DNA of 64,000 nucleotides. Origin: Clostridia bacterium. GTDB lineage: Bacteria > Bacillota > Clostridia > TANB77 > CAG-508. Made by a program: the position numbers and the translations under genes. Location: contig JAGAED010000006.1 in the NCBI GenBank assembly GCA_017613275.1, forward strand, positions 24,841 to 88,840, written 5' to 3'. Under the pieces are notes generated by a model. It did no database searches. It worked only from the letters and a program-made list of their open reading frames with translations, and had not been told where the DNA came from. Of this stretch, positions 2,561 through 52,506 are shown one piece after another. Position 1 is the first letter of the stretch, and every line of letters begins with the position of its first letter.

Positions 2561-2574
2561 AAGAAAATAAAAAA

Positions 2575-2612
2575 GCTACGCAAGCACGACTTGCGTGGCT
2601 TTTTTATTTTTT
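2575..2612 (+). terminator. Rho-independent terminator of rpoC
   Basis: GCTACGCAAG / CTTGCGTGGC stem with 5-nt loop, followed by TTTTTTATTTTTT. Confidence 0.85.
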
Positions 2613-2648
2613 AAAACCTAGTTTTTTGGGAGTGTCCCAAAAAGTCTG
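2613..2648 (-). repeat. PAL palindrome family, inverted degenerate copy (AAAACCTAGTTTTTTGGGAGTGTCCCAAAAAGTCTG)
   Basis: Left arm and loop (AGTGT, the reverse complement of ACACT) match the window-wide palindrome; right arm diverged. Confidence 0.7.
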
Positions 2649-2750
2649 TTACACAAATGTAAAATAAAAATAATGATATTGCAAAAAACGACAAAAAATA
2701 GCTTCCCTAGTGAGTTAGAAGGCGCTACCAAAACGTGGCAAAAAGTGGTA

Positions 2751-2779
2751 TTGAAATTATATATATAAGTAAGTAAAAT
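2751..2779 (+). promoter_or_regulatory. Putative sigmaA-type promoter of giant protein gene 1 (TTGAAA-17-TAAAAT)
   Basis: Hexamers at 2751-2756 and 2774-2779 with 17-nt spacer containing (TA)5; about 55 nt upstream of the RBS/ATG. Confidence 0.45.
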
Positions 2780-2835
2780 AATTCTTGAATTATACTTTAA
2801 TAAAAAGCGAAAATTATACAAAGGAGAGGCTGGTT

Positions 2836-5800
2836 ATGAAATTGCCATTTAAACCAAAGTATTTGAATTTTAGGAAAGGAAGCGAAAAAGGTAGTGTTAC
2901 TTTATTCGTTCTTATTGCGATGCTATTTTTCCTTATGATTGGAATGATGATTTTTATTATCAACATGAATGCTGAAACAGCGCAAAAGAGAGATGTTGAG
3001 AAGATCAAAAGTGAATACAGCGCAAATACGAACGAAACTGACCTAGAGCAAATGTACCAAGAGGCTAAACAACGTCAAATGGGCACATTTTTTATCAAGT
3101 TGATTGATAAGTTTGGTGTAATCTATAACAGTGGTGAGTGGGTTAACGAAACATGGCTAAATAGTGAAAACTATAGATTGCCATTAACAGTTGAGCCAAG
3201 TTTCCCTGCGGGTCTTACAAACATTGATGTAACAGTAAGAGACGACATAAACGGTGGAAATGTTGTTATAAAAGACACAAACACTATCAAGCAAATGGCA
3301 ATTGGTACAAAAAGTACTACAACAGACCTACTTGTAGATGAAGGTCAATATACAATTACAAACAATATTGACTCAACAAATGAAATCAAGGTTAAAATAG
3401 ATGTTACAAAACCAGTTGTAAATACTATAAGTGGCGGAGAAGTATGGATAGTGCCAGATGGAACTGACACAACACTAGATGTTTCTATTACTGCAACTGA
3501 CCCAGCAGTCGCAAACGGAAAAGCTGGAAGTGGTATGGAAGGCGGAAAAATCGAATACGCTATTGGCACAACTGCACCAGATGGCAACACAACATGGTCA
3601 ACATATACAGGAGCAATAAAAGTTGAAAGTTCTTTGGGAGAAGGAGATTATTATATATATGCTAGAGCAACAGACTTAGCAGGAAATATTTCAGAAATAG
3701 CAACATCAGGAGTAATACAAGTTAGAACAGCAAACTACAAAATCACAACAGGAACAGATACAAGATATTCTGAAACTTTAGCTGATGCAATTTATAGAGC
3801 AAACCAAGCAAGCACAACAACAGAATCTACAATACAAGTATTGAGAGCAGTAAATGACAACTCAGAAGCAACAATTGACAAAACGATAACATTAGACACA
3901 AATGGAAAAACAGTAACAATGGCTAATACAATAACAGTGGCAAAAAACAAAACAGCAACATTTGTAGATACAGCAACAACAAAAGGTAAATTACAAAGAA
4001 CAACAGGAAAATTGATTACAAATAATGGTACTGTAACAGTAAATGGTGCAACAGTAGAATCAACTGATATGGTAATACATGGTGGAACAGTAAATGTTTC
4101 TTCAGGTATAGTAAATAATTCTGAAACAGAAACTAATGCAACTTCTAGAGCAATTCAAGCAACTAATGTTAATATAAGTGGAGGAACAGTATCATGTAGT
4201 GCTAGTCATAGTATTGTATCTACAGGTTTAATTACAATAACAGGTGGAACAGTTTCATCTAGAAATGGTATAGCACCACTAAATGGAACCTTAACAGTAA
4301 GTGGGGGTACAGTAAATGGAACAAACCAAGCAATATATTTTAATAGTGCTCAAAGTCCAAGTATAAATATATCTGGAGGAATAATAACTGGTGGAGACTG
4401 TGGAATAGCAGGATCTGTGACTACGACTGGAACAACAGGAAGGGCTAATATAACAATAACAGGTGGAACTGTGACAGGTGCTACTGATGGTATTAAAATA
4501 GGATGCCCAAATACGACATTAACAATAGGCGAAAGCACAAACGCTCTAAATAAAGAAACACCAGTAATCACTGGTACAAATGGATATTCAGTAAATATAG
4601 AAAGTGCAACATCAACATTCAACTTCTACGATGGTAAATTAATTGGTGGAACAAAAGCATTAGCATCTGAAGAAAAAAGAACATTCTTTGGAAGAGAAAT
4701 GTCATTTAACTTAGCAAATGACACAACAGCAAATTTCTATACAGAAACAGAAGGCAATGCAACAAGAAGATACTTACCATACACAAGAGAAAATGACCAA
4801 ACACACAAATTCGAAACAGTATTAGAAAAAGAAGTAAAAGTTACATTTGACAAAAATGCAGAAGACGCAACATGCACAGAAACAGAAAGAAACGTATTAA
4901 CAAATGTAGAATATAAAGAATTGGCAGGAACAGCACAAAACGATACAAGCGTAACATACTCAAACCTACCAAGACAAACAGGTTTAGAAAATGAAACAGA
5001 CAGCAAAATCGATAGAACAGGTTATACATTCAAGGGATGGCAAACAGTAGAAAATTTAATTCCAGATAGTGTTGATGATTGGGAACAAGGAGCAGTAAAT
5101 ATTGCTGGGGAACTTAGTAATAGTAGTACAAGAATAAGATTAAAGAATTATTTAAAAATAGCACCAAATACAAAATATACAATAACTACAGATAATTCGC
5201 AACAACTAGGAGTGAGAATGATATGTTTGTATGATAAGAATCTTAATTATCAATCAAATGCACAAGATTTACATGGAGCTAAAAATATTTCATTTACGTC
5301 AGGCTCAAATAGTGCATATATATTGGTAGCGTTAATGAACAATAATGGTACTGAAAATGGCGGAGATATATCAGTAAATGATATTCAAAATTCAGGTATA
5401 TACATGACAGCAGAAGTTACAGACACTACAAAAGTAACACAAGACACAGACCACACACTAAAAGCAATATGGGAAGCAAACAAATACACAGTACACTTCG
5501 ATGGAGATGGTGCAACAGGTGGAACAATGGCAGACCAAGAATTTGAATATGACGAAGAAAAAGCTTTAACACAAAATGCGTTCACAAGAGAACATACAGT
5601 AACTTATGATGGAAATGAAGGAACTGCATCAAAAGCAAATGATACAGCAACATACACATTTACAAACTGGGGAAATAAAGATATATTGGGATATGACCTA
5701 GATATGTCAGTTGGTAATGTTAGACAAGATAATATTATAGGGAATGAAAATGGATACAAAACATTAACAAATACAACTGGAAGCAATACACAAAAAGATT

Positions 5801-8800
5801 TTGCAAGATGGACAATACTACCAACATTTAATCCTGGTGATAAATATAAAGTAACATTCTATGCAAAAGGAACAAGAGGAGCATTAGGAGCGGATTTAGG
5901 AATATTCTTTTATGGAGCTACAGATTATTTGCAATGTACTAAAGTAGAATGTTCTAATGGCGCAGGTAATACAAGAGCAGATGGATATATGGGGCTATTA
6001 TTAACAGATAAATGGACAAAATATACAGTAACATGGACACTTGGTTCAAATGGAGATGGAAACGTAAATAAATATTTAATGTTTAGAGTTTATTCTGAAG
6101 CAAATGCTTCAATCTATGGCGTACGTTTCGAAAAACTAGAAAACGAAGAACATGCTGATCAAGAAGTAGTAAGTAACCTTACATCAGATCCAAATGGAAC
6201 AGTAACACTATACGCAGTATGGACACCACATGAAGTTACATTACCAAGTGCAACAAGAGAAGGATACATCTTTAATGGTTGGTATGACGCAACAACAGGT
6301 GGAAACAAAATTGGTAATGCAGGAGATAAATATATTCCAGAAGCAAACATAACACTTCATGCACAATGGAGACAAGTACACTACACAGTTTCAGTAGGAG
6401 AAGAAACTCTTCCAGCTGAAACTTTAGCAGAAGCGGTTGGACTTGCAGAAGAGAGAATAACAGGTTCAGTAACAACTGCAACAATTACTGCATTGATGAA
6501 TTATACAGATAATTCAACTGCGACAATAAGTAAAAATATTACAATAGACACAAATGGTCATGAAATAACAATGGCTAATACAATAACAGTAGCTGCAAAT
6601 ACAACAGCAACATTTGTAGATACAGCAACAACAAAAGGAAAATTAATAAGAACAGCAGGCAAATTGATTACAAATAGTGGTACAGTAAAAATAGGAACAA
6701 ACAATACAGATGGTACCGATATGGATTCTGTTGATAGAGTTGTTTCTGGAGGAGATGTTGAAGTAAATTCCGGAATATTAAATCTTACAGGGGCCGGAGA
6801 ATTAGATACTAATTTTGCAGTTATAAGTGCTGTTAATATAACTGTTAATGGCGGACAGATTATAAATGATTATATGCATTATGGATTATTAACATATGCT
6901 CAAGCTTCAGTAATAGATTTAAATGGTGGAATGATTAGAGCACAAGGTTGTGGCATAAATAGTTATGCAACATTAAATATGAGTGGAACAACTCAAATAA
7001 ACGGTGAAACAGGTATTATAACATATAATAATAATACAACATTTAATATTACAGGTGGAACAATAAATGCTTCAAATAATGGAATTTATAATTCTAAAAA
7101 TGGAACAATAAATGTAAGCGGTGGAACAATAACTGGAGGAACACATGGAATTTACAATGCTGCAAATGGTACTATAAATGTAAGTGGAGCAACTACTTCA
7201 ATTACAGGAACAAGTAGTCAAGGTATTAGGGGATATACAGGTAATGTAACTATATCAGGTGGTACAATACATGGAAATACTCATGGTATTTCTGTAAATG
7301 CAGATACTTTAAATTCAGGTTCAATTCTTATGACTGGTGGAACAGTTGAAAGTGCTTATTATGGTTTATTAGCAGCTGGTAATTCAACTATTACAATGGG
7401 CGCTAATGATGGAACAGTAAGTAAAGAAACACCAGAAGTAATATCTAATGCAACATCAGGAGATTACAATGGTGTATATAGAAATACTACTGCAACATTT
7501 AATTTCTACGATGGTAAAGTTACATGTTATACAGAACATTCTTTAAATGCTGCTGAAACAAGCAAGCCAGATGGTTACCAAGTTGTTAAGAGAACAGCAG
7601 ACGGCAGAGAAACTGCAGTTCTTGAAAAAGAATTAACAGTAACATTTGAACCAAACCCAGGAAACACAACAGGTGCAACAGTAAACCCTACAAGCAAAAC
7701 AGTATTAACAAATACTGCTTATGGGGAATTACCAACACCAACAAAAACGGGTTACTCATTCAAAGAATGGCAAACAGCCGATAATTTAATATCAACAAAT
7801 CCAAATGATTGGCAACAAGGTGCTATTAATGATGCAGCAGGAATAAATGGTTCAGATTTATCTACAAGAATTAGGACAAAAGATTATATAAGAGTATCTC
7901 CTAATACAAAGTATAGATTAAGTGTAAATAATTCAAATAATATAGTGATTAGATTGGTATGGTTTTATGATAACGATAAAGCATTTATTAGTACAAATGG
8001 AAATGAATATTATGTGGATGCTTTTGAATTTACAACACCAAGTAATTGTCATTATATTAGAACGGTATTACAATATGGTTATGCTGGAACAACTGACATT
8101 ACCCCAAGCAATGTTACAGATGCAAATATTCACTTAACAGAAACAGTAACTGATTCAACGTTGGTAACACAAGAAAGCAATCATACATTAAATGCAATTT
8201 GGGAAGCAAACCCATACACTGTTACAGCAGATGCAAATGGTGGTTCAATTACTGCAACAAATAATTGGACAGGTAATGTAGGAGATACAACAGCAACAAA
8301 ATCAGTAACATTCGATACAGCTTACGGAACATTACCAGAAGTATCAAGAACAGGTTATACATTTGATAAATGGACAGGAAAGAACTTGTTGAATTTACAA
8401 GTTCCTGAAAGTACACCAAGTGATACAACAAAAAATAATACAACTGCAAGAAAATTTGAATTTAACACGTATATTAAGGGAATAGCTTATAACAACTATT
8501 ATGTTAATGATAATGTTGGAAGTGTAACGATAAATCAAAATAGTATAAAAGTAAATGCTAAAAATGGATATGGAGCAGGATATGCTTTAAAGGTAAATAA
8601 AAATACAAATTATGTATTGTCATATGATGCAGATGGTGCTAACTCTGTTACATCAATAATTTATTATAATGAAAATGGTGAAATGATAAGTTATGAAAGA
8701 ACGAATGGAAATGGAACTAAAAATGTTCAGTTTACAACTCCAAATGATATTTATTATTTAGTTGTAGTATTTTCTGTTGAAAAAGGTGAATTTACTGAAT

Positions 8801-11800
8801 ATACATTTTCAAACATAATGTTAGAAGAAGGCTCTACTGCTACCTCATACGAACCATACAAAACAATTACAGCAGAAAGCTTATTATCAACAGACTGCGA
8901 CCATAAAATTTATGCACAATGGACACCAATAACATACAATATTACATACAACATGAATGGAGGAACAAACAATGCATCTAATCCTTCGACATACACAATT
9001 GAAACACCAACATTCAATTTACAGACACCAACAAGAGATAATTTTACATTCTTTGGATGGGAAGTAAATGAGGGGACAAGTGTATTAGGAAGTATTTTAA
9101 GTCAGACTCCAACAGTAACAATAAATAATGGTACATATACATTTACAAACGCAACAGAGGATAATAGATATACTAATACGAAACTACAACTATACAGTTC
9201 AACACAAAGTATAATTCTCCAATTAAAACAAAATAGCAATTTAGAAAAGGTTTATGGAATATATGACCACAAATTAGAAAGTGGAGTATACAGGCTAAAA
9301 TTTGCTGCAAATGGTTCAAGAAGTGATGGTTATGTATTTTATAATGTTAATTTAGAACAAGGCAAAAAATACTATTATCAATGGGAAAATACAAAAGCGA
9401 CTGATCAAGAATATGTGGTTAATAACTTTAAATTCGTAGAAGCAACTGGAAACACTTCAGTATCAATTCCTCAAGGAAGTTATGGAGATAAAGAATTTAC
9501 AGCATATTGGTATGCAAATCAATATACATATAGAGAATACACAGCAACATTTGATGTGAATGGTGGTAATGAATTGCCTGAAGCAGATAGAACAAGAACA
9601 TTACAATATGCAACACCATTAGGCGAATTACCAACTACAACCAAAACTGGTTATGACCTAGCAGGATGGTTTACTGCGGCAACAGGTGGAACAGAAATAA
9701 CAGCTGAAACAAAGATGGGGGCAGCTAATGTTACATACTATGCACATTGGACAGCTAAACAATACACAGTTTCATTCGATGCCAATACTGGTACAGGAGG
9801 ACAAAGCGAAGCGGTTACAGCAACTTATGACAGTGCAATGCCAGCAATTAGCACAACAGCACCAACTAAGAGAGGTTATACATTCATGGGATGGTATGAC
9901 AACGCAGACTATACACAAGGTACACAATACTACACAGCAGAAGGTGAAAGTACTAGAACCTGGGATAAAACTGCAGACACAACATTGTATGCAGGATGGC
10001 AAATTAATCAATATACTTTAACAGTTGATCCAAATGGAGGTACATGGAATGGTCAAACAACTGCAACAACTGTTACACAAAACTATGGTACAACTTACAA
10101 TGTAGCAAACAATGCTACAAAAGAAGGCTACGTATTTGGTGGATGGCAGTTAGTTGATGGAAATGGAAATAGACAAAATATAGATCCAAACGATTCAAAT
10201 ATTAAGTATTTTGATGATTCAAACGGTTCTACGCAATTATTGAAACAATACATAATAAATGAAACAAGTACACAGAAACCTGGAGTGTACAATAACAATT
10301 TAAACGGAGCAGTTACTTTTAATAAAATTTCTGATGCTACATCTCCAACAGGATATTCATTAGAAATAAAGACAGATGGAACAGCAAGTCCATCTGCTGG
10401 AGGATTTGTAAATGCTAATAATTCTATAGCTGGAACATTTTATTATCATAAAATAATTGCAAAGGTTCCAAAAGGATATACATTAAATATAGCATCTAAT
10501 ACGACGGGCGTGGGATATGGCAATTATTGGTTAACAAGTAATACTGGAACTGGAGAATGGAGAACATATATTTACGTCCAATACACAGGATATAATAAAC
10601 CATTTAGTTCTTTGGGACATGTATATTTATTTGGAACAAATAATAAAAGTGTAACTTGGTGGTTACAAGAAAGTTCAGTTTATAAAATTGCGAATAATCT
10701 AACCGAATTACAAGCAACAAATGTAGATTATACGTTTACAGATAGTAATCAAAAATTAATAGCTGTGTGGAGGGCATCTGGTTCAAGATTAACATTTGAT
10801 ATACAAGGTGGAACTTATGGTAATGGAACAATTGGAACAGAGTGGACTTCAAAAAGTAAAGATTATAGATATGATACAGCATATCCAAACGCACACGAAG
10901 TTCCATATTATACAAGTGATTCAGACTTTGCAATATACAAAACTGGATACACACTTGATGGTTGGTACACTGAACCAAATGGTCAAGGAACAAAATTATT
11001 TGATGCAAATGGTAGATTAATACCAAACGTATCAGGCTATACAGATGCAAACAGAACATGGAAATATTATGCAAGCAGCTTCACAATTTATGCAAATTGG
11101 GTAGCAAATAATTATACAGTTCAAGCAAACCTAAATGGAGGAACGATTTCTTCAGCAGAAGGTTGGGATTTAACTGGAGAAAAACCAGAAAAAACTGTAA
11201 CTTACGATAGTGCTTATGGCACATTGCCAAGTGTATCAAGAACAGGATATACATTTAAAGGATGGAGTTTATTACCAGCTGGTTATGAACAAGTTGAATA
11301 TATTAATTTTAACGGCTCACAATATATTGATACTGCTGTATTAACAAAACAAAGTTTAATAGTTGAAGCAGAATTTTCTACAACAACTAAATCGAAAACA
11401 TTCTTTGGTGGAAGAACATCAACGGGAGCAAACTCTCTTGTATTTGGATATTTTGATAATAATAGTTCATATGTAGGATTTGGTAAAGATACAACCATCT
11501 ACTCTACAACAATAAATCCAATAGATGGAAACAAGCATAAAGTTATACTTAGCAACGACATTTATCAAATAGATGGAACAGACCAAACAATTAATAATAG
11601 GTCAACATTAACTCAATTTAATAACATCTATTTAGGAACATGGAATAATAATGGTTCAGCAGATAGCAGAATGTATATTGGAAAAATATATAGCTTTATT
11701 GTTTATGATGGACCAGAAATAGTTAGATTTATGATTCCATGTGTGAATAAATCAACTGGAAAAGCAGGATTTTATGATTTAGCAAATGGAGTATTCTATG

Positions 11801-13149
11801 GAAAGACAACAGGAGATGACTTCACATATGGAAATAAAGCATATCTAACATCTGATACAATTGTTAGAATAGCATCAGATCACACAATAACAGCAAATTG
11901 GGAAGCCAATAATTATACTGTCACAGCTGATTTAAATGGCGGAACAGTTACTTCAGCAGATGGTTGGGATACAACTGGGGCTCAACCTACAAAATCAGTA
12001 ACTTATGATAGTGCTTATGGCACATTGCCAACAGTAACAAAAGCAGGTTACACATTTGATAAATGGACAGGAAAGAATATGTTTGATGAAGAAACATTAT
12101 TAATGGCAATTGACGGAGCAACAAAAGAAAATGGATATTATGTATTTGACCCATCAAAGGCACATTTATTATATTCAAGGATAAATGGAACAGAAGAAAT
12201 AGATCCAGGATTTAAAGAAAATACACAATATACGTTAAGCATAAAAGGTTATACTGACTATGTTTCATCAGCTAATGTATATCAAACAGTATTTATTGGT
12301 TTTGTTTATACAGATGGTACATATAGTTCAATAACTATAAGTGGTGAAACAGAAGTGTTGAAAACTTTTGTAAGTTCAAGTGGAAAAACTGTTGAAAAAA
12401 TCAGCATTTCTTTTGGAAGATATAATGCCAATGCACATATAAAATATATTCAAGTTGAAGAAGGCACAACAGCTACTTCATACGAACCATACAAAACAAT
12501 TACTGCAGAAAGTTTAGTAGCAACAGATTGTAACCATACAATCCATGCAAACTGGACTGCAAACCCATACACTGTCACAGCAGATGCAATGGGTGGAACA
12601 ATTCCATCAACAGATGGATGGACAAATGCAGCTGGAAATGGTTCAGCTACAAAAGAAGTAACATACGATAGTACTTATGGCACATTGCCAACACCAACAA
12701 AAGATGGTAACGTATTCGCAGGATGGTATAAAGAAAATACATTTGTAAATAAAGTTGAAACATCAACACAAGTTACAACAGATTCTAACCATACTATTTA
12801 TGCAAAATGGATTAACTTTACTTTAAGTAAAAATCCACTATACATGAACAAAACTACAACAGGCACTGCAATATTAGCACCACAAGGAACAGAAGGTGCA
12901 GCAGTAACATATTCTGGAAATAACATTGGAGAATTGACATTTGAGAGTCAAGATACTAGTGTTGTAACAGTATCGGCAAATGGAGCTAATACACAAGCTA
13001 CAATAACAACAGCAGCAGGTGCACAAAATGGAAATACAACAAAGGTAATAATAAAAGACAGAACAACAGGCGAAACAATAGGTGAGCTAACAGTAATAAT
13101 CGATACAGAACCACCAACATGGATAGTTCACTTACTTGGAATCGAATAA
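2836..13149 (+). CDS. Giant membrane-anchored repeat protein (3437 aa): two parallel beta-helix-like modules, many Listeria-Bacteroides (Flg_new) repeats, jelly-roll/CBM-like modules, LamG-like module, C-terminal Big_2-like Ig domain
   Basis: ATG 2836 preceded by AAAGGAGAGG (the ORF-track TTG at 2785 has no RBS); N-terminal hydrophobic helix; repeated ...YG.LP.P.R.GYTF.GW... motifs; GGTV/GGTI-rich beta-helix repeats; no LPXTG or SLH motif seen. Confidence 0.9.
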   Translation: MKLPFKPKYLNFRKGSEKGSVTLFVLIAMLFFLMIGMMIFIINMNAETAQKRDVEKIKSEYSANTNETDLEQMYQEAKQRQMGTFFIKLIDKFGVIYNSGEWVNETWLNSENYRLPLTVEPSFPAGLTNIDVTVRDDINGGNVVIKDTNTIKQMAIGTKSTTTDLLVDEGQYTITNNIDSTNEIKVKIDVTKPVVNTISGGEVWIVPDGTDTTLDVSITATDPAVANGKAGSGMEGGKIEYAIGTTAPDGNTTWSTYTGAIKVESSLGEGDYYIYARATDLAGNISEIATSGVIQVRTANYKITTGTDTRYSETLADAIYRANQASTTTESTIQVLRAVNDNSEATIDKTITLDTNGKTVTMANTITVAKNKTATFVDTATTKGKLQRTTGKLITNNGTVTVNGATVESTDMVIHGGTVNVSSGIVNNSETETNATSRAIQATNVNISGGTVSCSASHSIVSTGLITITGGTVSSRNGIAPLNGTLTVSGGTVNGTNQAIYFNSAQSPSINISGGIITGGDCGIAGSVTTTGTTGRANITITGGTVTGATDGIKIGCPNTTLTIGESTNALNKETPVITGTNGYSVNIESATSTFNFYDGKLIGGTKALASEEKRTFFGREMSFNLANDTTANFYTETEGNATRRYLPYTRENDQTHKFETVLEKEVKVTFDKNAEDATCTETERNVLTNVEYKELAGTAQNDTSVTYSNLPRQTGLENETDSKIDRTGYTFKGWQTVENLIPDSVDDWEQGAVNIAGELSNSSTRIRLKNYLKIAPNTKYTITTDNSQQLGVRMICLYDKNLNYQSNAQDLHGAKNISFTSGSNSAYILVALMNNNGTENGGDISVNDIQNSGIYMTAEVTDTTKVTQDTDHTLKAIWEANKYTVHFDGDGATGGTMADQEFEYDEEKALTQNAFTREHTVTYDGNEGTASKANDTATYTFTNWGNKDILGYDLDMSVGNVRQDNIIGNENGYKTLTNTTGSNTQKDFARWTILPTFNPGDKYKVTFYAKGTRGALGADLGIFFYGATDYLQCTKVECSNGAGNTRADGYMGLLLTDKWTKYTVTWTLGSNGDGNVNKYLMFRVYSEANASIYGVRFEKLENEEHADQEVVSNLTSDPNGTVTLYAVWTPHEVTLPSATREGYIFNGWYDATTGGNKIGNAGDKYIPEANITLHAQWRQVHYTVSVGEETLPAETLAEAVGLAEERITGSVTTATITALMNYTDNSTATISKNITIDTNGHEITMANTITVAANTTATFVDTATTKGKLIRTAGKLITNSGTVKIGTNNTDGTDMDSVDRVVSGGDVEVNSGILNLTGAGELDTNFAVISAVNITVNGGQIINDYMHYGLLTYAQASVIDLNGGMIRAQGCGINSYATLNMSGTTQINGETGIITYNNNTTFNITGGTINASNNGIYNSKNGTINVSGGTITGGTHGIYNAANGTINVSGATTSITGTSSQGIRGYTGNVTISGGTIHGNTHGISVNADTLNSGSILMTGGTVESAYYGLLAAGNSTITMGANDGTVSKETPEVISNATSGDYNGVYRNTTATFNFYDGKVTCYTEHSLNAAETSKPDGYQVVKRTADGRETAVLEKELTVTFEPNPGNTTGATVNPTSKTVLTNTAYGELPTPTKTGYSFKEWQTADNLISTNPNDWQQGAINDAAGINGSDLSTRIRTKDYIRVSPNTKYRLSVNNSNNIVIRLVWFYDNDKAFISTNGNEYYVDAFEFTTPSNCHYIRTVLQYGYAGTTDITPSNVTDANIHLTETVTDSTLVTQESNHTLNAIWEANPYTVTADANGGSITATNNWTGNVGDTTATKSVTFDTAYGTLPEVSRTGYTFDKWTGKNLLNLQVPESTPSDTTKNNTTARKFEFNTYIKGIAYNNYYVNDNVGSVTINQNSIKVNAKNGYGAGYALKVNKNTNYVLSYDADGANSVTSIIYYNENGEMISYERTNGNGTKNVQFTTPNDIYYLVVVFSVEKGEFTEYTFSNIMLEEGSTATSYEPYKTITAESLLSTDCDHKIYAQWTPITYNITYNMNGGTNNASNPSTYTIETPTFNLQTPTRDNFTFFGWEVNEGTSVLGSILSQTPTVTINNGTYTFTNATEDNRYTNTKLQLYSSTQSIILQLKQNSNLEKVYGIYDHKLESGVYRLKFAANGSRSDGYVFYNVNLEQGKKYYYQWENTKATDQEYVVNNFKFVEATGNTSVSIPQGSYGDKEFTAYWYANQYTYREYTATFDVNGGNELPEADRTRTLQYATPLGELPTTTKTGYDLAGWFTAATGGTEITAETKMGAANVTYYAHWTAKQYTVSFDANTGTGGQSEAVTATYDSAMPAISTTAPTKRGYTFMGWYDNADYTQGTQYYTAEGESTRTWDKTADTTLYAGWQINQYTLTVDPNGGTWNGQTTATTVTQNYGTTYNVANNATKEGYVFGGWQLVDGNGNRQNIDPNDSNIKYFDDSNGSTQLLKQYIINETSTQKPGVYNNNLNGAVTFNKISDATSPTGYSLEIKTDGTASPSAGGFVNANNSIAGTFYYHKIIAKVPKGYTLNIASNTTGVGYGNYWLTSNTGTGEWRTYIYVQYTGYNKPFSSLGHVYLFGTNNKSVTWWLQESSVYKIANNLTELQATNVDYTFTDSNQKLIAVWRASGSRLTFDIQGGTYGNGTIGTEWTSKSKDYRYDTAYPNAHEVPYYTSDSDFAIYKTGYTLDGWYTEPNGQGTKLFDANGRLIPNVSGYTDANRTWKYYASSFTIYANWVANNYTVQANLNGGTISSAEGWDLTGEKPEKTVTYDSAYGTLPSVSRTGYTFKGWSLLPAGYEQVEYINFNGSQYIDTAVLTKQSLIVEAEFSTTTKSKTFFGGRTSTGANSLVFGYFDNNSSYVGFGKDTTIYSTTINPIDGNKHKVILSNDIYQIDGTDQTINNRSTLTQFNNIYLGTWNNNGSADSRMYIGKIYSFIVYDGPEIVRFMIPCVNKSTGKAGFYDLANGVFYGKTTGDDFTYGNKAYLTSDTIVRIASDHTITANWEANNYTVTADLNGGTVTSADGWDTTGAQPTKSVTYDSAYGTLPTVTKAGYTFDKWTGKNMFDEETLLMAIDGATKENGYYVFDPSKAHLLYSRINGTEEIDPGFKENTQYTLSIKGYTDYVSSANVYQTVFIGFVYTDGTYSSITISGETEVLKTFVSSSGKTVEKISISFGRYNANAHIKYIQVEEGTTATSYEPYKTITAESLVATDCNHTIHANWTANPYTVTADAMGGTIPSTDGWTNAAGNGSATKEVTYDSTYGTLPTPTKDGNVFAGWYKENTFVNKVETSTQVTTDSNHTIYAKWINFTLSKNPLYMNKTTTGTAILAPQGTEGAAVTYSGNNIGELTFESQDTSVVTVSANGANTQATITTAAGAQNGNTTKVIIKDRTTGETIGELTVIIDTEPPTWIVHLLGIE

Positions 13150-13153
13150 AAAC

Positions 13154-13200
13154 AAAACCTTGTTTTTTGGGACACTCCCCAAAAACAAGGTTTTATTTTT
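13154..13200 (+). terminator. PAL palindrome copy acting as terminator of giant gene 1
   Basis: AAAACCTTGTTTTTTGGGACACTCCCCAAAAACAAGGTTTTATTTTT; 14-bp arms, ACACT loop, T-rich tail. Confidence 0.8.
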
Positions 13201-16276: not shown

Positions 16277-16320
16277 GCTTCCCTAAAGCGACAAAAAATA
16301 TTAAGGACAAGTAGTAAAAT
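16277..16320 (+). promoter_or_regulatory. spoIIE upstream control region: GCTTCCCTAA box, CGACAAAAAATA (0A-box-like, reverse orientation), TAAAAT -10
   Basis: GCTTCCCTAA 16277-16286; CGACAAAAAATA 16289-16300 (identical 12-mer at 2689-2700); TAAAAT 16315-16320 with no good -35, as expected for an activator-dependent promoter. Confidence 0.4.
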
Positions 16321-16353
16321 AAGCCTATAAAAAGTTTTGGAGAGGTGATAAGG

Positions 16354-21051: not shown

Positions 21052-21109
21052 AATTTCAGTTAACATTTTGAAAGTGTCCCAAAATGTTAACTGAAATTGA
21101 TTTTTTTTT
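21052..21109 (+). terminator. Terminator of topA; unrelated 18-bp stem but PAL-type loop (GAAAGTGTCCC)
   Basis: AATTTCAGTTAACATTTT / AAAATGTTAACTGAAATT perfect arms, then GATTTTTTTTT. Confidence 0.85.
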
Positions 21110-24423: not shown

Positions 24424-24440
24424 AATAAACACAATAGACT

Positions 24441-24466
24441 ACGCAAGCACGGCTTGCGTGTTTTTT
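24441..24466 (+). terminator. Rho-independent terminator of the coiled-coil gene (near-identical to the rpoC terminator)
   Basis: ACGCAAG-cacgg-CTTGCGT followed by GTTTTTT; CTACGCAAGCACGRCTTGCGTG is shared with 2576-2597. Confidence 0.8.
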
Positions 24467-24590
24467 ATTAGCAATTCTCGTTTAAATGTAACAAAAATGT
24501 AAAATAAACTTAATCTATTCGACAAAAATCGCTAAAATGTGCTTCCCTAAAGGCATATGAGGCGATTTTATTTTTACCAAAATTACTATA

Positions 24591-24619
24591 TTGATTTTGT
24601 ATTTTTTTCTTTATAAAAT
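24591..24619 (+). promoter_or_regulatory. Putative sigmaA-type promoter of giant protein gene 2 (TTGATT-17-TAAAAT)
   Basis: Hexamers at 24591-24596 and 24614-24619; same offset from the GCTTCCCTAR box as the promoter at 2751. Confidence 0.45.
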
Positions 24620-24649: not shown

Positions 24650-24687
24650 AAAAACCTAGTTTTTGGGGAGTGTCCCCAAAAGTCGGG
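24650..24687 (-). repeat. PAL palindrome family, inverted degenerate copy in the leader of giant gene 2
   Basis: AAAAACCTAGTTTTTGGGGAGTGTCCCCAAAAGTCGGG; same CCTAG / AAAAGTC variant as the copy at 2613. Confidence 0.7.
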
Positions 24688-24711
24688 AATAAATACAAAG
24701 GAGAGAACAAA

Positions 24712-27700
24712 ATGCAAAAGTTGAAGGGAAAAGGAAAACAAATTATTTTCGCTGTAGCTGCCATTTTACTTGTAATGGGAGTTGTTTGTGGCGTTGTTTT
24801 GAACAATAACACACAACATGTTTCTAAAGAGATTCCAATCAAGGTTAAAGTGCTTGGAATATCTGAATCTGCTACAAGCGAAAGCCTAGTAAATGGCGAT
24901 AATTCTGAAGAAGGGGAGAAAACAGGTACTACCGAAGTTTCGCGAATTGGTGCAATCGAGCCTGAGAAGGCTGATGTAACAGTTGGTGATTTGAATTATG
25001 CAAATAAAGATAATACCATAAGGCTTGAGCTTGATGGTACTGATAATTTTAAAGTGCAAAATTCGACACTAACTATTGACCAAATCGTTGTTAAGGTTAA
25101 TGGAACACAAGTAAATGCTACAAAGAGTTTTGAAAGTGGTCCAGAAGAGTTAAATGATGGCCAAAACGGTAAGAAATACGTACTTGCTTTAACAAATGTT
25201 ACAGGTGATGGAGTTCTTTCTATCGTTATCCCAGCAAATACTTTAACTGACGAAGCAGGTAATACAAATGATGAGATAACTTCAACTTTTGATACTCAAG
25301 TAATTATAGATAATACAGCTCCGACTAAACCAACATGGAATGCATATTTTGTAGATGGTAGTGGAGCATACACAAGTGGTAATTGGACTGCAAAAGAGGT
25401 TAGAACAGCTGTATCTGCAGTAGATATGGGCTCTGGTGTTGAAAAAATCCAATATAGTGTAAATGATGGAACATGGACAGATTGTTCTTTAGCAATAACA
25501 GCAGTTGCTAATGGAATTTTTTCAAGTGGAGATACTTGGACATTTGAAACTGGCAAGAATGACAATATTAGGTTCAGAGCAATAGACTATGTTGGAAATG
25601 TTTCATCAATTTCAGACATCTTCAATGTCAAATATGACAACACAGCCCCAACACTTTCATTAAGCTTAAATCCACTAGGATATGCAGAAGCAATTGATAT
25701 AAATGTAACATCAAGTGATACATACAGTTCAATTGCAACAACAAAATATGCAAAGGGAAACCATGATGTGGCGTATTTTGTAAGCAACGGAGACAATGTT
25801 GCAAACAACACATGTACAGTAACAGAGAATGGAACATACACAGTGTATGTTGAAGACGAAGCCGGAAATGGAGCAGTTGCAACAATAGTAGTAGACAAAA
25901 TTGACAAAACAGCACCAGTAATTGAAGCAAATAATGTATTTAATGGAACAAGTATAAGCTTTACAGCAAAAGATATTGTACCAGATTCAAACGAAGCTCC
26001 ATCAGGAGTAGTAGGATATCAAATAACAAATTCTAGCACAGCTCCAACAAGTGGTTGGACAAATCTAGAGGTACCAGCAGTTGAAACAGTAGATGGAAAG
26101 CAACAAACTTCTAAAGCAGTAACTATTTCAAATTCTGGTTTATCAGCTGGAACATATTATATTTGGGTAATAGATGCTGTAGGACATAAAACAAGCAAAG
26201 AAATTTCAGTTGCATATAACGTAACTTTTGATTATCAAGATGAGGGAACATATTCAAAGGATTTCTTAGATACAGGTTATACAATTGACTGGAGCAAAAG
26301 CTTTAGAGTAGAAGAAACATTTAGAGTTGGAGCATTGGGAAAAGACTATTTATTATTTGGAAACTATCCAACAAAAGGAACATTAAATATAGAAGTAGCT
26401 AGCGATAATAAAATTAGAGTTTACATTACAGATTCAAGTACAAATACAGCAATTAGTGATGTAAAATCTAGTGCAACTATTGCTAATAACGAGGACATTT
26501 CTTTAGTATTTGAATGGAATTCATTAACTAAAAAGTATAGTGTAACAGCTATTGGAACTACAACAAATATTACAATGAATAGTGACACAATAAATATAAC
26601 AAGAACAGCAGAAAACACATCGAGAGTAGGTCAAGACCACAGAGATACAACATACGAAACTTTCAAAAAAATAAGTATTAAGGCATTTAAAATTATCGAG
26701 AATGTACCAAACGTTGCAGGAATAGGAACATTCCCAACAGTTGGAAAAACAGGTTATACATATAATGGATGGTTTACTCAAGCAACAGGTGGAACACAAA
26801 AAACAAGTTTTGCGGATTTAACAACAAACGAAACATTATATGCACAAAAAACAGCTAATACATATTCAGTACAATATAATGGAAATAATAGTACATCTGG
26901 AAGTATGAGCAATAGCTCTCATACTTATGATGTGGCTAAGAACTTAACAGCTAATGCTTTTGGAAGACAATATACAGTAACATATAACCATAATTACCAA
27001 GGCAGTGTTAACGAAAACAAAACAGGAACATATTCTTTTAGTGGATGGGCAACATCAGCTAACGGATTAAAAACTTATGATGATGGACAAAGTGTAACAA
27101 ATTTAAGCAGTACAAATAATGATACAGTAAATCTTTATGCTGTATGGACAGGTGGAAGCATTGACTATACACCAACAAGAACTGATTACTCATTTGGTGG
27201 TTGGTATACAAATTCTGATTGTACAGGAACAAGAGTAGATACAGATGGAGTTTATACTCCAACTGCAAATACAACTTTATATGCTAAATGGATGGATCAA
27301 AATATACCTGTGTTAACTATAGAAGGTGGAATAACAGATAAGGTAACAGCAACAACTGGTCAAGTTGTAACATTAAAAGCACATGATAATGATGGAATTA
27401 CAGCTTATTATTGGGGAACTACAGAGCCAACACAATTATCAGATATAACAAACGGATCACTTTCTAACTTAGCAGCAATACAAGGGGAATCAGGATTAAA
27501 CCAAACAATAAATTCAACAGGAACATATTGGTTTGCATGTAGGGATATAACAGGAAACTGGGATAAAAAGTCAATAACAATAATTAGTTATACAGTAGAT
27601 AATTTAATAGAGAACATAGACGGTGCAGGCGATACATATACAAATGCAAATTATACAAGTGCAATTAATAAAACATATATAATAAAAGATGGAACAAGTT

Positions 27701-30700
27701 TGAAATTAAGAAAAATAGGAACTTTACCAGAAGGAGCAGGAGGAAGTGCTTATCAAGGCTATTCTACAGTATTTTCAACAACACCTGCAACACTTGAACC
27801 AGATCCAGATGCAACAATAACACTAGAAAATGGTACAACATATTATATGTGGTATAACAGAAGAGTATTTACAATAACATTAACTGATAGTGAAAAAGGT
27901 TTAATTACTGCTGAAACAGTAATACAACAAGGAAATCATGTAACTTTACCATCACTAAATGGAGAAGATAGAATTATAGATGCAAAATATGGAGATTCAT
28001 TAAGATTAACAGCAATACCATATGATGGATATACATTTACAGGATGGTCTGGTGGATATGTGAGTGGAACTTCAAATCCAGTAGAAGGTTCAGCAATTAC
28101 AGATTTTAAAACTGTAACAGCATCTTATACATATACCGCAACACCAGTGATTACAAGAACAGCTTATAATACGTTTTCAGTAAGTGCACCATTTGGAGCA
28201 GAATATATTATAAGTAAAACACAAACAACAAAACCTGTAGCAGGGGCAAGTGGATGGTCAACTACAACAACTAAAACAACAAGTACATCAGCAAAAGAAA
28301 CTTGGTATGTATGGGCAAAAGATTCATCAGGAGTAGTATCTCCAAATTGTTCAACAATAACAAATTACCAAGTAACACTAACAGCTGGAACAGGAACAAC
28401 ATTAACAGCAAAAGCAGATAGAAATATACAATCATCACCTGCAGTAACTAGTGCAATGTATGTGCTAGCGGGAACACCTGTATATCCAACAGGTGCAACA
28501 TTAAATGGATACAATTCTTTGGTTATAAAAAATGGAGATGTTGCAATCGCAAATTCAAGTAGCCAAACAATTAATGCAAATACAACATTTACAACTAGCG
28601 CGTCTGAAAATGTTGTAACAATAAATATTAAAAAAGATGATGTGGCATGGCCAGCAAGTGGAATTAAAGTAACATTGTATAATGGCTCAACTCCAACTGC
28701 TTATACTGCAACTGTTAGTGAAAGTGGAGTAAGTTCAGCAACATTTACTAATGTGCCAAATGGAACATATAAGATATATGCTGGAAAAGAAAATTTTGAT
28801 CCGGAAAACTTAATTGATAGCAAATTGGAGGTAACTGTAAATAATAATAGCCCATCTGCTATTACATTGGATTATTATAGTTTAACTTTAAGAACAGGAA
28901 ATGGAGTAGATGTTGTATTAGCGGATGATATATGGTCAGATATAGAATTTGAAAGACTATACTTAAATACACAACAAAGTATAAATATTAGAGCTTATCC
29001 AGAAGAAGGATATTCATTTGATAGATGGACACCAGGAGAATATTTGCCTGACAACTTTACAGCTACTTCTGAAATGCAAACGATAAGGATGGTAGCACAT
29101 CCTGTAACATTAACAGCTAGTGCACATGATATAACTGCTCCAGAAGTAAGCATAGATGGAGGAATAGCTTTAAAGAGTACAAGTCAAACTGTAGCATTAA
29201 AGGGAAGTGACGGAGTAGGAATAACTGGATACTATTGGGGAACAACAGAACCTACTTCTGCAGAATCATGTACAACAACAACAGCTTCACATCTAACAGC
29301 AATAAATAGTTCTAACGGATTAAGTAAAACAATTAGTTCGACAGGAACATATTGGTTTGCATGTAGAGATGCAGCAGGAAATTGGAATAAAACATCTATT
29401 ACAATAGTAAGTTATACAGTAAATAACTTATTGGAAAAAATAGAAGGTGAAAGAAATACATTTACTAATGCAAATTATACAAGCGTAAGTACTGGAACAT
29501 ATATTGTTAGAAGCGGAAGACCTTTAACAATAGATGAAATAAGAACAGTGCCAACAGAATCAACAGGAGCAACAGTTAATGAATATAGAGGATACTCAAC
29601 AACCTTTAATACAACCCCTGCAAGTGTGGATACAACATATACACCACAAGCAACTAATGGCGCAACATATTATATTTGGTTTAATAGAACAACATTTACA
29701 GTAACATTAAATAAAAACGTAAAAGGTGGTATTTCGGCAGAAACTGTAACATTACAAAATAACAGTGTATCAGTTGCAAGTAACTCATCTTCAAATAAAA
29801 CTTTAAGCGTTAAATATGGAGATACAGTAAGAGTAACAGCCCAAGCAAATTCTGGATATACATTTACAGGATGGTCAGGTGGATATGTAAGTGGAGATAC
29901 AAACCCTACAACTGGTGCAGAAGTTACAGAAAACAAAACTGTAACAGCATCATTTGAGGATAGAACAGCTCCAAGAATAAAAGTTCAAGCTTTTGAATAT
30001 TCAAGTACAGCAACAAATTATGCAGGAGATGCATTAAATAATGAAATATCATTTTCAGGATCTGCTAGTACAAATGAATATGTGGGAAATCAACATTGGA
30101 CTAATAAAGGTGTAACATTTAAATTTACTGTTTATGATGAAGTAGGTGTAACAGGAGCTACATGGAGATATAATCCTACTGGACAATACACAGATACAGG
30201 AGATTCATATAATGAAAATCCAAGTACATGGTCAAATGGTGGAACAAATGGAATTAGATACTTAAATTTACAAGGAGCTGGAAGGAGAAAAGCACAATAT
30301 ATCGTACGAGATGCAGCAGGAAATGAAACAACTGTAACAGTTATTGCAAAAATTGATAAAACTGCTCCAACACTTTCAGGAACAGTTACTGCTAATATAG
30401 ATAGTTCAGATAAATTAACTGTAAAACTTGCTATATCTAGTGCATCTGATGTTGGCGGAGGAATTACAAGGTATGGAGTATATGATGGAGATACTGAATT
30501 AGCAGGAACTAATTCAACTGGAACAACAGGAACTAAAACAATAGAATTATCAAATAATACGGATTGGTATTCAAAGGATTTAGTTGTAAAAGCATTTGAT
30601 GATGCAACAAATGTATCAAATGGGGTACCAATAAGCTATTATACTATAAATAGTTTAAATGGCTTTAGCGGATTATCAATGTGCGTAAAATCAGCCAGTG

Positions 30701-36173: not shown

Positions 36174-36208
36174 ACCTTGTTTTCTGGGACACTCCCCAAA
36201 AACAAGGC
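36173..36208 (+). terminator. PAL palindrome copy immediately after the tex stop
   Basis: AACCTTGTTTTCTGGGACACTCCCCAAAAACAAGGCT. Confidence 0.7.
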
Positions 36209-39921: not shown

Positions 39922-39965
39922 CCTTGTTTTGGGGACACTCCCCCAAAACAAGGTTTTTTATTTTT
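39921..39965 (+). terminator. PAL palindrome copy acting as terminator of gdpP
   Basis: ACCTTGTTTTGGGGACACTCCCCCAAAACAAGGTTTTTTATTTTT. Confidence 0.8.
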
Positions 39966-47199: not shown

Positions 47200-47238
47200 A
47201 AAACCTTGTTTTTGGGGTGTCCCCAAAAACAAGGTTTT
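47200..47238 (-). repeat. PAL palindrome copy with shortened loop, upstream of the membrane protein gene
   Basis: AAAACCTTGTTTTTGGGGTGTCCCCAAAAACAAGGTTTT; perfect 14-bp arms. Confidence 0.8.
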
Positions 47239-52461: not shown

Positions 52462-52468
52462 ATTTTGT

Positions 52469-52506
52469 AACCTGGTTTTTTGGGACACTCCTAAAAAACC
52501 AGGTTT
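52469..52506 (+). terminator. PAL palindrome copy with compensatory stem changes
   Basis: AACCTGGTTTTTTGGGACACTCCTAAAAAACCAGGTTTT (CCTGG/CCAGG in place of CCTTG/CAAGG). Confidence 0.75.

What the first reader, a model, noticed from the sequence alone, without database searches (positions are those of the whole stretch)
2649..2779. Collinear paralogous control regions upstream of the two giant genes
Seen: 2649-2779 and 24489-24619 align without any indel.
- ACA(C/A)AAATGTAAAATAAA is at 2651 and 24491.
- GCTTCCCTA(G/A) is at 2701 and 24541.
- GGCG is at 2721 and 24561.
- The predicted -35 is at 2751 and 24591, and the TAAAAT -10 at 2774 and 24614.
- In both loci the GCTTCCCTAR box starts exactly 50 bp before the -35, and the AAATGTAAAATAAA box 46 bp before GCTTCCCTAR.
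- Sequence between the boxes has diverged.

Inference: the boxes are functional sites, such as an upstream activator or repressor site or a UP-like element, that co-regulate the two giant proteins. The regions descend from one ancestral cassette.
Basis: seen in the sequence. Interest (0 to 1): 0.65.

Follow-up and report, generated by a model that had tools for sequence, protein, structure and literature searches.

The report
Conserved promoter cassette before giant surface-protein genes
The two look-alike stretches are real copies of a roughly 230-base promoter cassette that uncultured gut Clostridia place in front of their giant surface-protein genes, with several short boxes kept at fixed, helix-phased distances that most likely bind regulators.

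Summary
2649-2779 and 24489-24619 match at 76 of 131 bases without gaps, against 57.7±2.1 in shuffles (z=8.9).

The homology covers both whole intergenic regions, from terminator hairpin to ribosome-binding site. A dispersed palindromic repeat breaks it at a different place in each locus.

I found 14 such cassettes in at least 7 lineages of related gut Clostridia. All lie upstream of large, N-terminally anchored surface-protein genes.

Conserved blocks:
- T box: TACGCRA.
- Box A: TGTWAY-AAAAA-TGTAAA.
- Box B: TTCC[C/G]TA.
- An A-tract, then a sigma-A-type -35 and -10 exactly 17 nt apart.

Spacings are fixed: T to B 103-106 nt, A to B 54-58 nt, B to -35 46-50 nt or one helical turn more. Boxes are 81-87% identical between lineages, spacers 44-59%.

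The GGCG box is not conserved. A box-B look-alike before spoIIE is not conserved beyond close relatives. No RNA structure, DNA inversion or Spo0A-box enrichment was found.

Best reading: a multi-site, face-of-helix regulatory module. Box A matches the WalR/OmpR-type direct-repeat consensus. Which factors bind is unproven.

The parts
2576..2612 (+). Locus 1: rpoC terminator hairpin CTACGCAAGCACGACTTGCGTG plus T-run. It contains the T box TACGCAA (2577-2583).
   Evidence: The T box is conserved in 12 of 13 cassettes.
2613..2646 (.). Copy of the dispersed palindromic repeat (TTTTTGGGA-GTG-TCCCAAAAA), inserted between the T box and box A. It is not part of the ancestral cassette.
   Evidence: family D10. 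Related strains carry an extra copy at about 2810-2813.
2647..2668 (+). Locus 1 box A: TGTTAC-ACAAA-TGTAAA-ATAAA, a direct repeat with 11-nt register.
2701..2710 (+). Locus 1 box B: GCTTCCCTAG. The invariant core is TTCC[C/G]TA.
2721..2724 (+). GGCG box of the finding. It is shared by the two window loci only and is not conserved.
   Evidence: G2722A and G2724A in a close strain..
2736..2779 (+). Locus 1 core promoter: UP-like TGGCAAAAA (2736-2744), -35 TTGAAA (2751-2756), a 17-nt spacer containing (TA)5, and -10 TAAAAT (2774-2779).
2823..13149 (+). Ribosome-binding site GGAGAGG and giant gene 1. ATG at 2836, 3437 aa, N-terminal membrane anchor, at least 9 Listeria-Bacteroides (Flg_new) repeats.
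24439..24470 (+). Locus 2: terminator hairpin CTACGCAAGCACGGCTTGCGTG plus T-run. It contains the T box (24440-24446).
24487..24508 (+). Locus 2 box A: TGTAAC-AAAAA-TGTAAA-ATAAA.
   Evidence: The only strain variant is T24505C, in the tail outside the two hexamers.
24541..24550 (+). Locus 2 box B: GCTTCCCTAA.
24575..24619 (+). Locus 2 core promoter: A-tract TACCAAAAT, -35 TTGATT (24591-24596), a 17-nt spacer containing T7, and -10 TAAAAT (24614-24619).
24651..24684 (.). Copy of the dispersed palindromic repeat, here in the 5' leader of giant gene 2. The 91%-SpoIIE relative L022 has it at the same place.
24700..33003 (+). Ribosome-binding site GGAGAG and giant gene 2. ATG at 24712, 2763 aa, N-terminal membrane anchor, GLUG and Flg_new repeats.
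   Evidence: Transcript contigs occur in a faecal metatranscriptome.
16277..16288 (+). GCTTCCCTAAAG upstream of spoIIE, a 12/12 match to locus 2 box B. It is probably not a member of the cassette family.
   Evidence: Lost in relatives at 71% SpoIIE identity or less. Not found by the cassette profile.

Best explanation
Each region is a copy of a conserved expression cassette of about 230 nt. A lineage of uncultured gut and rumen Clostridia uses it to drive large, N-terminally anchored surface-protein genes.

The cassette has two parts:
- An ordinary sigma-A-type promoter: an UP-like A-tract, -35 TTGAWW, a 17-nt spacer, and -10 TAnnAT.
- A three-site upstream control region. The T box (TACGCRA) and box B (TTCC[C/G]TA) are an imperfect inverted pair held 103-106 nt apart, about 10 helical turns. 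Box A (TGTWAY-AAAAA-TGTAAA) lies about midway between them.

The most likely mechanism is that regulatory proteins bind these boxes on one face of the helix and control initiation at the promoter about 50 nt downstream of box B. Box A has the form of an OmpR/PhoB-family response-regulator site and fits the WalR/VicR consensus TGTWAH-N5-TGTWAH. T and B could be bound by a second factor that bends or loops the DNA between them.

What is shown: the conservation, the spacing and phasing, and the gene association. What is inferred: that proteins bind the boxes. I put about 0.55 on the boxes being protein-binding transcriptional control sites. I put about 0.3 on box A being a site for a WalR-like or other OmpR-family regulator.
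For: - The match is not chance: z=8.9 against shuffles, and it is the best of 105 real intergenic pairs.
- There are 14 cassettes. Three came from a box-pattern scan (L008, L009, L010). Nine came independently of the boxes through protein homology or synteny (L012, L017, L018a, L018b, L019, L020, L022, L026, L028). L017 is near-identical to locus 1, which leaves 8 independent cassettes.
- All 14 are upstream of surface-protein genes with varied domains, several of them giant (>2,700 aa): Flg_new, GLUG, MBG_2, SdrD_B/SpaA/CLIPPER.
- Identity between lineages is T 87%, A 86%, B 81%, -10 75%. Spacers are 44-59%.
- Spacing: A to B is 54-58 nt (47 in L019). T to B is 103-106 nt in all 9 cassettes without an insertion between T and A. 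B to -35 is 46-50 nt, or 60 nt in L009 and L028, which is one turn more. The -35 to -10 spacer is 17 nt in 12 of 13.
- Within-species polymorphism avoids boxes A and B and falls between or after them.
- Box A matches TGTWAH-N5-TGTWAH exactly in 9 of 13 cassettes, with 1 mismatch in 3 and 2 mismatches in 1. These 9 are 9 of the 14 exact matches in 214 kb of held DNA. The consensus and its use in Clostridia are from PMC9210968.
- A WalK/PhoR-family kinase lies in the window at 61498-62961.
- A yocH-like G5-3D gene in relative L028 carries a cluster of TGTWAH half-sites upstream.
Against: - No binding protein has been identified. No response-regulator gene is in the window.
- The WalR consensus is short and AT-rich. 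It gives 3 exact hits in the window against 1.6 expected, and 29 intergenic hits in C. difficile. The match alone proves little.
- Box A conserves its spacer (AAAAA) and, less strictly, its tail (ATAAA), more than a simple two-hexamer site would need.
- Box A lies about 104 nt upstream of the -35. That is far for a classical OmpR-type activator.
- The inverted-repeat relation between T and B is modest: 7.4 of 14 positions on average, with two systematic C/G differences.
- In many cassettes the T box is simply the 5' arm of the upstream gene's terminator.
- The transcription start is predicted, not mapped.
Confidence: 0.55

Rival explanations
1. The cassette is conserved mainly because it is a recombination handle. 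On this view, a shared 5' module (terminator, promoter, leader and first ~60 codons) lets gene conversion or homologous exchange swap or diversify the giant adhesin bodies. The boxes are relics of that exchange, not regulator sites.
For: - Window locus 1 and L017 are at least 86% identical from about 2555 to about 3016, which covers the cassette and the first ~60 codons.
- Downstream of that, identity drops to about 60% in DNA, and the N-terminal ~400 aa are 39% identical overall. The upstream genes are unrelated: rpoC in the window, DUF4160/DUF2442 in L017.
- The two window loci share a 21/22 identical hairpin, while the ortholog of locus 2 in L022 has a different hairpin.
Against: - Recombination would homogenise whole tracts. 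Here only short boxes survive between lineages while spacers fall to background identity.
- Spacing is kept to within about one helical turn.
- Cassettes precede proteins with unrelated N-termini and domains.
- This reading can coexist with regulation. It does not explain the box pattern.
Confidence: 0.2
2. T and B are the inverted repeats of a small invertible or otherwise recombining DNA switch of about 110 nt that flips box A. This would give phase-variable expression of the giant proteins.
For: - T and the reverse complement of B share TTA-G-AA at a fixed distance of 103-106 nt.
- The genes encode surface proteins of a gut bacterium, a class that is often phase-variable.
- (TA)5 and T7 tracts lie in the promoter spacers.
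Against: - All 14 cassettes have the same internal orientation.
- No strand-switch joints appear in contigs of 11 different metagenome runs laid on the two loci, and no length variation at the repeat tracts.
- The repeats are only about 7-10 nt and imperfect.
- The promoter lies outside the T-B segment.
- No recombinase gene was identified among the window ORFs scanned.
Confidence: 0.05
3. The boxes belong to a sporulation (Spo0A-type) regulon that also includes spoIIE. The giant proteins would then be switched at the onset of sporulation.
For: - GCTTCCCTAAAG occurs identically upstream of spoIIE at 16277 and at locus 2.
- CGACAAAAA, which resembles a reversed 0A box, occurs at 2689, 16289 and 24520, three of only four + strand copies in the window. 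Locus 2 has a perfect TTCGACA.
Against: - The spoIIE copy degrades to GCTTACTAAAAAA or GTCTACTAAAAAA in relatives at 71% SpoIIE identity or less, while the rest of that promoter stays conserved.
- The cassette profile does not hit the spoIIE region.
- 0A boxes number 4 in 14 cassettes against 1.4 expected, and their positions vary.
- The promoter is sigma-A type.
Confidence: 0.05
4. The conserved stretch is a structured RNA, either a leader or a small RNA, rather than DNA sites.
For: In single cassettes box B can pair with downstream sequence. In L020 this forms a strong hairpin followed by T7.
Against: - RNAalifold finds no consensus structure on either strand; the energy is 0.
- Single-sequence z-scores are mostly unremarkable.
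- There are no Rfam matches near threshold.
- The boxes lie upstream of the conserved -35 and -10 and downstream of a terminator.
- Metatranscriptome contigs do not cover them (weak evidence).
Confidence: 0.03

Closest known systems
WalR/VicR (YycF) operators of Firmicutes, and OmpR/PhoB-family tandem sites in general (B. subtilis PhoP TTHACA-N5-TTHACA is from my own knowledge)
   Same: - Box A is a direct repeat of two hexamers in 11-nt register with an A/T-rich spacer. It fits TGTWAH-N5-TGTWAH exactly in 9 of 13 cassettes (consensus from PMC9210968).
- The target genes encode cell-envelope proteins.
- The site lies upstream of a sigma-A promoter.
   Different: - The site is about 104 nt upstream of the -35.
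- It is flanked by two further conserved boxes.
- Its spacer and tail are also conserved.
- The targets are giant adhesin-like proteins, not the peptidoglycan hydrolases typical of the WalR regulon.
- No cognate regulator has been identified, and binding is untested.
Looped repression or activation complexes with two distant operators and a central architectural site, such as the E. coli gal repressosome (OE-HU-OI, 113 bp) and the NagC-CAP-NagC loop. From my own knowledge.
   Same: Two related, inverted sites about 10 helical turns apart (103-106 nt), a third site near the midpoint, and spacing changes in whole turns.
   Different: - In those systems the loop encloses the promoter. Here the promoter lies about 50 nt outside the T-B segment.
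- The similarity of T and B is modest.
- This is an analogy of geometry only.
Conserved 5' regions of variable surface-protein gene families in mycoplasmas (vsp, vpma, vsa)
   Same: Paralogous surface-protein genes each preceded by a highly similar 5' non-coding region. A homopolymeric tract lies near the -10 (PMC2268961).
   Different: - There the conserved region carries the recombination site for an adjacent Xer-like recombinase, and one promoter serves the locus through DNA inversion.
- Here every cassette has its own complete promoter.
- No recombinase gene was identified among the ORFs scanned around the two loci.
- No inversion was seen.
Unit of evolution spanning an intergenic region and the 5' end of the next gene (S. 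aureus lpl cluster; Tsuru & Kobayashi 2008, PMC2568036)
   Same: [quoted passage not shown] This fits window locus 1 against L017.
   Different: The lpl genes are a tandem cluster recombining at a central conserved coding region. Here the loci are dispersed, and the conserved block is mostly non-coding with discrete boxes.
UP elements of strong bacterial promoters. From my own knowledge.
   Same: A conserved A-tract (TGGMAAAAA) sits 7-15 nt upstream of the -35 in most cassettes.
   Different: Box B is G+C-rich.

Membership tests
WalR/VicR binding site | Direct repeat TGTWAH-N5-TGTWAH | tested here: met
   - Exact at 2647 and 24487.
- Exact in 9 of 13 cassettes, with 1 mismatch in 3 and 2 mismatches in 1.
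- Chance matches are common in AT-rich DNA: 1.6 expected per window.
WalR/VicR binding site | Located in promoters of the cell-wall metabolism regulon (autolysins and related genes) | tested here: inconclusive
   - The targets here are giant surface proteins.
- The G5-glucosaminidase gene in the window has only a 1-mismatch match that overlaps a TATAAT.
- A yocH-like gene in L028 has a cluster of half-sites upstream.
WalR/VicR binding site | The genome encodes WalR-WalK, and WalR binds the site | not testable with these tools
   - Only a WalK/PhoR-family kinase was seen, at 61498-62961. It scores 356 bits against WalK, below the 725-bit cutoff.
- No response regulator is in the window.
- Binding needs an experiment.
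UP element | A/T-rich alpha-CTD contact region at about -40 to -60 | tested here: not met
   Boxes A and B lie at about -139..-118 and -85..-76 relative to the predicted start. A separate A-tract next to the -35 may be UP-like.
Invertible promoter or DNA switch | Inverted repeats flanking a segment that is found in both orientations | tested here: not met
   The short imperfect T/B inverted repeat exists. However, all 14 cassettes share one orientation and no strand-switch joints were found. Contigs can miss rare variants.
Mycoplasma-type vsp/vpma expression-site system | One promoter per locus, a recombination site in the conserved 5' region, and an adjacent tyrosine recombinase | tested here: not met
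   Each cassette has its own -35 and -10. No recombinase domain was found in the ORFs scanned, which include all those flanking the two loci.
Structured cis-regulatory RNA or sRNA | Conserved secondary structure with covariation; Rfam match | tested here: not met
   alifold energy is 0 on both strands. Rfam gives only sub-threshold terminator-like hits.
REP/MITE-like dispersed palindromic repeat (applies to the 34-41 nt element inside the two regions, not to the boxes) | Many intergenic copies, palindromic, with presence/absence polymorphism between strains | tested here: met
   - At least 9 copies in the window.
- Contig depth over the element is about 15-20 times that of its flanks.
- Related strains carry an extra copy at about 2810-2813, and L010 has three copies.

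The most novel reading that the evidence does not exclude
T-A-B is a dedicated, helically phased nucleoprotein switch. A looping or bending factor would sit on the inverted T and B sites with a response regulator on box A. The whole lineage of uncultured gut Clostridia would use it to coordinate its repertoire of giant adhesin-like proteins, perhaps choosing among them. The same conserved 5' module would double as the homology handle for exchanging adhesin bodies between strains.
Probability: 0.15. Interest if true: 0.7.

Novelty: new variant of a known kind. Interest (0 to 1): 0.5.

Why it matters
Giant repeat-rich surface proteins are among the largest and most variable genes of uncultured gut and rumen Firmicutes. 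Almost nothing is known about how they are controlled.

A conserved, easily recognised cassette gives three things:
- A sequence tag for finding these genes' true starts and promoters in metagenome-assembled genomes.
- A defined DNA fragment of about 200 nt, with three discrete boxes, for fishing out the regulators by DAP-seq or EMSA with recombinant proteins, without culturing the organism.
- A natural example of strict helical phasing over about 180 nt upstream of a Gram-positive promoter.

If box A is a WalR-type site, it would link envelope-homeostasis signalling to adhesin display in Clostridia.

Tried and rejected
- **Chance in AT-rich DNA.** Rejected by shuffles and by real intergenic controls.
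- **GGCG as a functional box.** Rejected. It mutates in a close strain and is absent in distant cassettes.
- **Spo0A boxes.** CGACAAAAA and TTCGACA looked promising because of spoIIE. The count is 4 against 1.4 expected, positions vary, and they are absent from the L008 and L009 clade.
- **spoIIE as a regulon member.** The box-B look-alike is not conserved at 71% SpoIIE identity or below.
- **Alternative sigma factors.** I read the sequence against the sigma-54, ECF, sigma-H/E/F/G/K, sigma-D and TcdR-type promoter consensus from my own knowledge. No spacing fitted.
- **Promoter on the minus strand inside box A (TTTACA).** No consistent -10.
- **Xer/dif-like site.** Box B and box A each resemble a dif arm, but the order and spacing are wrong.
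- **Rfam.** Nothing at the gathering threshold or at permissive thresholds.
- **Consensus RNA structure.** None.
- **Metagenome pattern scan.** It only re-found L009's contig.
- **Viral-contig pattern scan.** It gave 68 pattern matches, none a full cassette. This works as a specificity control.
- **Literature search for TNACA** (to check my memory of a BceR-type motif). It returned only tnaCA papers, so that comparison is dropped.
- **Metatranscriptome contigs.** They stop at the repeat boundary 24651, so they cannot map the transcription start.
- **Regulator gene next to the loci.** None was found in the window.

Full report
**Setting.** The window has 32% G+C and comes from an uncultured, spore-forming member of the Clostridia found in ruminant and other gut metagenomes. 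It carries the 3' part of rpoC, spoIIE, topA, gdpP-rplI-dnaB, ftsH and a murE-mraY-ftsW-murG cluster. Two giant genes lie on the + strand:
- 2836-13149 encodes 3437 aa with at least 9 Listeria-Bacteroides repeats.
- 24712-33003 encodes 2763 aa with GLUG and Flg_new repeats.

Both proteins have an N-terminal membrane anchor and no C-terminal one.

- The ungapped match is 76 of 131 bases and is the best diagonal between the two intergenic regions.
- 500 dinucleotide-preserving shuffles give 57.7±2.1 with a maximum of 67, so z=8.9.
- Among the other 104 pairs of real intergenic regions in the window, the best reaches 66.

The homology also extends beyond the finding.
- Both regions begin with the same terminator hairpin, CTACGCAAGCACGRCTTGCGTG, which is unique to these two places.
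- Both end with the same ribosome-binding region, ATACAAAGGAGAG.
- Each is interrupted by a copy of a dispersed palindromic repeat (AAAACCTWGTTTTTGGGGACACTCCCCAAAAACAAGGTTTT and truncated forms, at least 9 copies in the window).
- That repeat sits before box A in locus 1 (2613-2646) and in the 5' leader in locus 2 (24651-24684).
- Related strains carry an extra copy at about 2810-2813, so the repeat is a later insertion and not part of the cassette.

**Related sequences.**
- A scan of one genome per species for box A plus box B found three real cassettes (L008, L009, L010) and one chance hit in a Bacteroidales genome.
- The boxes were required for those hits, so I also collected cassettes without using the boxes.
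- Homologs of the giant proteins' N-termini gave L012, L017, L018a, L018b, L019 and L020.
- Synteny around SpoIIE orthologs of 91%, 71% and 64% identity gave L022, L026 and L028.
- In every one of these the same architecture is present, upstream of a large surface-protein gene.
- Those genes' domains differ widely: Flg_new, GLUG, MBG_2, SdrD_B/SpaA/CLIPPER.
- A profile built from 13 cassettes found only the 14 known copies in 232 kb of held DNA.
- A relaxed box pattern in viral contigs gave 68 chance hits, none a full cassette.

**Anatomy.** In order, the cassette contains:
- The T box, TACGCRA. It is often the 5' arm of the upstream terminator. It reads TAGGGAT in L020 and TACGGAA in L019.
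- Box A, 47-49 nt after T: TGTWAY-AAAAA-TGTAAA, followed by a less constrained ATAAA tail.
- Box B, 54-58 nt after the start of box A: (G)CTTCC[C/G]TA, with TTCC invariant.
- An A-tract, TGGMAAAAA, shortly before the -35.
- The -35, TTGAWW, 46-50 nt after the TTCC of box B.
- A spacer of 17 nt in 12 of 13 cassettes.
- The -10, TAnnAT.

The departures from these spacings are informative.
- L009 and L028 have 60 nt from B to the -35, about one helical turn more.
- In L019, box A lies 10 nt closer to B and 10 nt further from T.
- As a result the T-to-B distance is 103-106 nt in all nine cassettes that have no repeat inserted between T and A. L019 has the weakest boxes, so this last point rests on limited evidence.

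**Constraint on the boxes.**
- Between lineages, identity is 87% for T, 86% for A, 81% for B and 75% for the -10. The spacers are 44-59% even after optimal gapped alignment.
- Even between the window and its 91%-SpoIIE relative L022, the T-to-A spacer is only 16/40 identical, while T is 7/7, A 15/17 and B 8/9.
- Strain-level substitutions seen in metagenome contigs fall outside boxes A and B. The one change inside the 22-nt box A is T24505C, in the tail beyond the second hexamer.
- The GGCG box is not conserved. A close strain has G2722A and G2724A, and distant cassettes have nothing there.

**What the boxes resemble.**
- Box A is a direct repeat in 11-nt register and fits the WalR/VicR consensus TGTWAH-N5-TGTWAH. 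PMC9210968 cites that consensus for B. subtilis and uses it to predict C. difficile sites.
- The fit is exact in 9 of 13 cassettes, and these are 9 of the 14 exact matches in 214 kb of held DNA.
- The motif is short and AT-rich. The window has 3 exact hits against 1.6 expected, and C. difficile has 29 intergenic hits. The argument therefore rests on conservation, not on the match.
- T and the reverse complement of B share TTA-G-AA, on average 7.4 of 14 positions against about 3.5 background. This makes them an imperfect inverted pair about 10 helical turns apart, with box A near the middle.
- The window holds a WalK/PhoR-family histidine kinase next to the mur genes at 61498-62961. It scores below the WalK cutoff, and no response regulator is in the window.

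**Alternatives tested.**
- RNA: there is no consensus structure on either strand and no Rfam family. The boxes lie between a terminator and a conserved promoter.
- DNA inversion: all cassettes have one orientation, and no strand-switch joints were seen in contigs of 11 different runs.
- Sporulation regulon: GCTTCCCTAAAG upstream of spoIIE (16277) is identical to box B of locus 2. In relatives at 71% SpoIIE identity or less, that position reads GCTTACTAAAAAA or GTCTACTAAAAAA while the rest of the promoter is conserved.
- Spo0A boxes: they are not enriched, at 4 against 1.4 expected.
- Recombination handle: locus 1 and L017 are at least 86% identical from the terminator through about codon 60, then about 60%, and have unrelated upstream genes. 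The two window hairpins are more alike than the orthologous hairpin in L022.
- So exchange or conversion of the 5' module probably happens, as described for S. aureus lpl genes (PMC2568036). It does not explain box-versus-spacer conservation or the phasing.

**Expression.** A faecal metatranscriptome holds contigs covering 24651-26340 and none upstream. The 5' limit coincides with the repeat boundary, so it does not map the start.

**Conclusion.** The finding is real and is part of a larger, lineage-wide promoter cassette for giant surface-protein genes. The best-supported mechanism is protein binding at three phased upstream boxes that control a sigma-A promoter. Box A has the form of an OmpR/WalR-type response-regulator site. 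Which proteins bind, and whether they activate or repress, remains unknown.

Noticed in passing
window 2613-2646, 13154-13194, 24651-24684, 36171-36207, 39917-39960, 47200-47238, 48398-48431, 52467-52500, 62969-63009 (weaker copy near 21060-21090): A dispersed palindromic repeat (AAAACCTTGTTTTTGGGGACACTCCCCAAAAACAAGGTTTT). Most copies sit right after stop codons and look like bidirectional terminators. Copy number differs between strains: related strains have an extra copy at about 2810-2813, and L010 has three copies. Contig depth over the element is about 15-20 times that of its flanks.
   Followed up: partly
window 16277-16330: The spoIIE promoter region carries GCTTCCCTAAAG, identical to box B of locus 2. 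Next comes GCGACAAAAAAT, then a TAAAAT -10 22 nt after a GCGACA -35-like hexamer. That layout is reminiscent of Spo0A-dependent spoIIE/spoIIG promoters. The box-B look-alike is not conserved in more distant relatives.
   Followed up: yes
window 61498-62961: An orphan PAS-HisKA histidine kinase lies directly after murE-mraY-ftsW-murG. Its best matches are WalK (356 bits) and PnpS/PhoR (351 bits), both below the curated cutoffs. No response regulator is adjacent.
   Followed up: partly
window 2555-3016 compared with L017 812-1330: The terminator, cassette, leader and first ~60 codons are at least 86% identical between two strains. The rest of the giant gene is only about 60% identical and the upstream genes are unrelated. 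This suggests the 5' module is exchanged or the gene body is replaced.
   Followed up: partly
window 2758-2767 and 24602-24608: Simple-sequence tracts lie inside the 17-nt promoter spacers: (TA)5 in locus 1 and T7 in locus 2. T7 is also present in L022. These are candidates for slipped-strand phase variation, but no length variants were seen in the contigs examined.
   Followed up: partly
L008 3400-3573 and L009 1970-2142: The genes upstream of these cassettes end in ...TGPTGAN/TPSTGAN, then a hydrophobic stretch and a basic tail. This may be an unusual cell-wall sorting or anchoring signal.
   Followed up: no
L028 18169-18205: Four TGTWAH-like half-sites at 9-11 nt spacing lie about 200 nt upstream of a G5-3D (yocH-like) gene. 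That fits a WalR-type site in a relative.
   Followed up: no
L012 2625-2690, 885-925 and 2735-2765: Two other families of palindromic or repeated intergenic elements occur in a related genome. One is inserted between the T box and box A of that cassette.
   Followed up: no
window 22502-22795: A run of 21-nt (7-codon) tandem repeats lies inside the 971-aa coiled-coil gene that precedes locus 2.
   Followed up: no
window 24651-26340: Contigs from a faecal metatranscriptome run cover the leader and 5' part of giant gene 2, so the gene appears to be expressed in vivo.
   Followed up: partly
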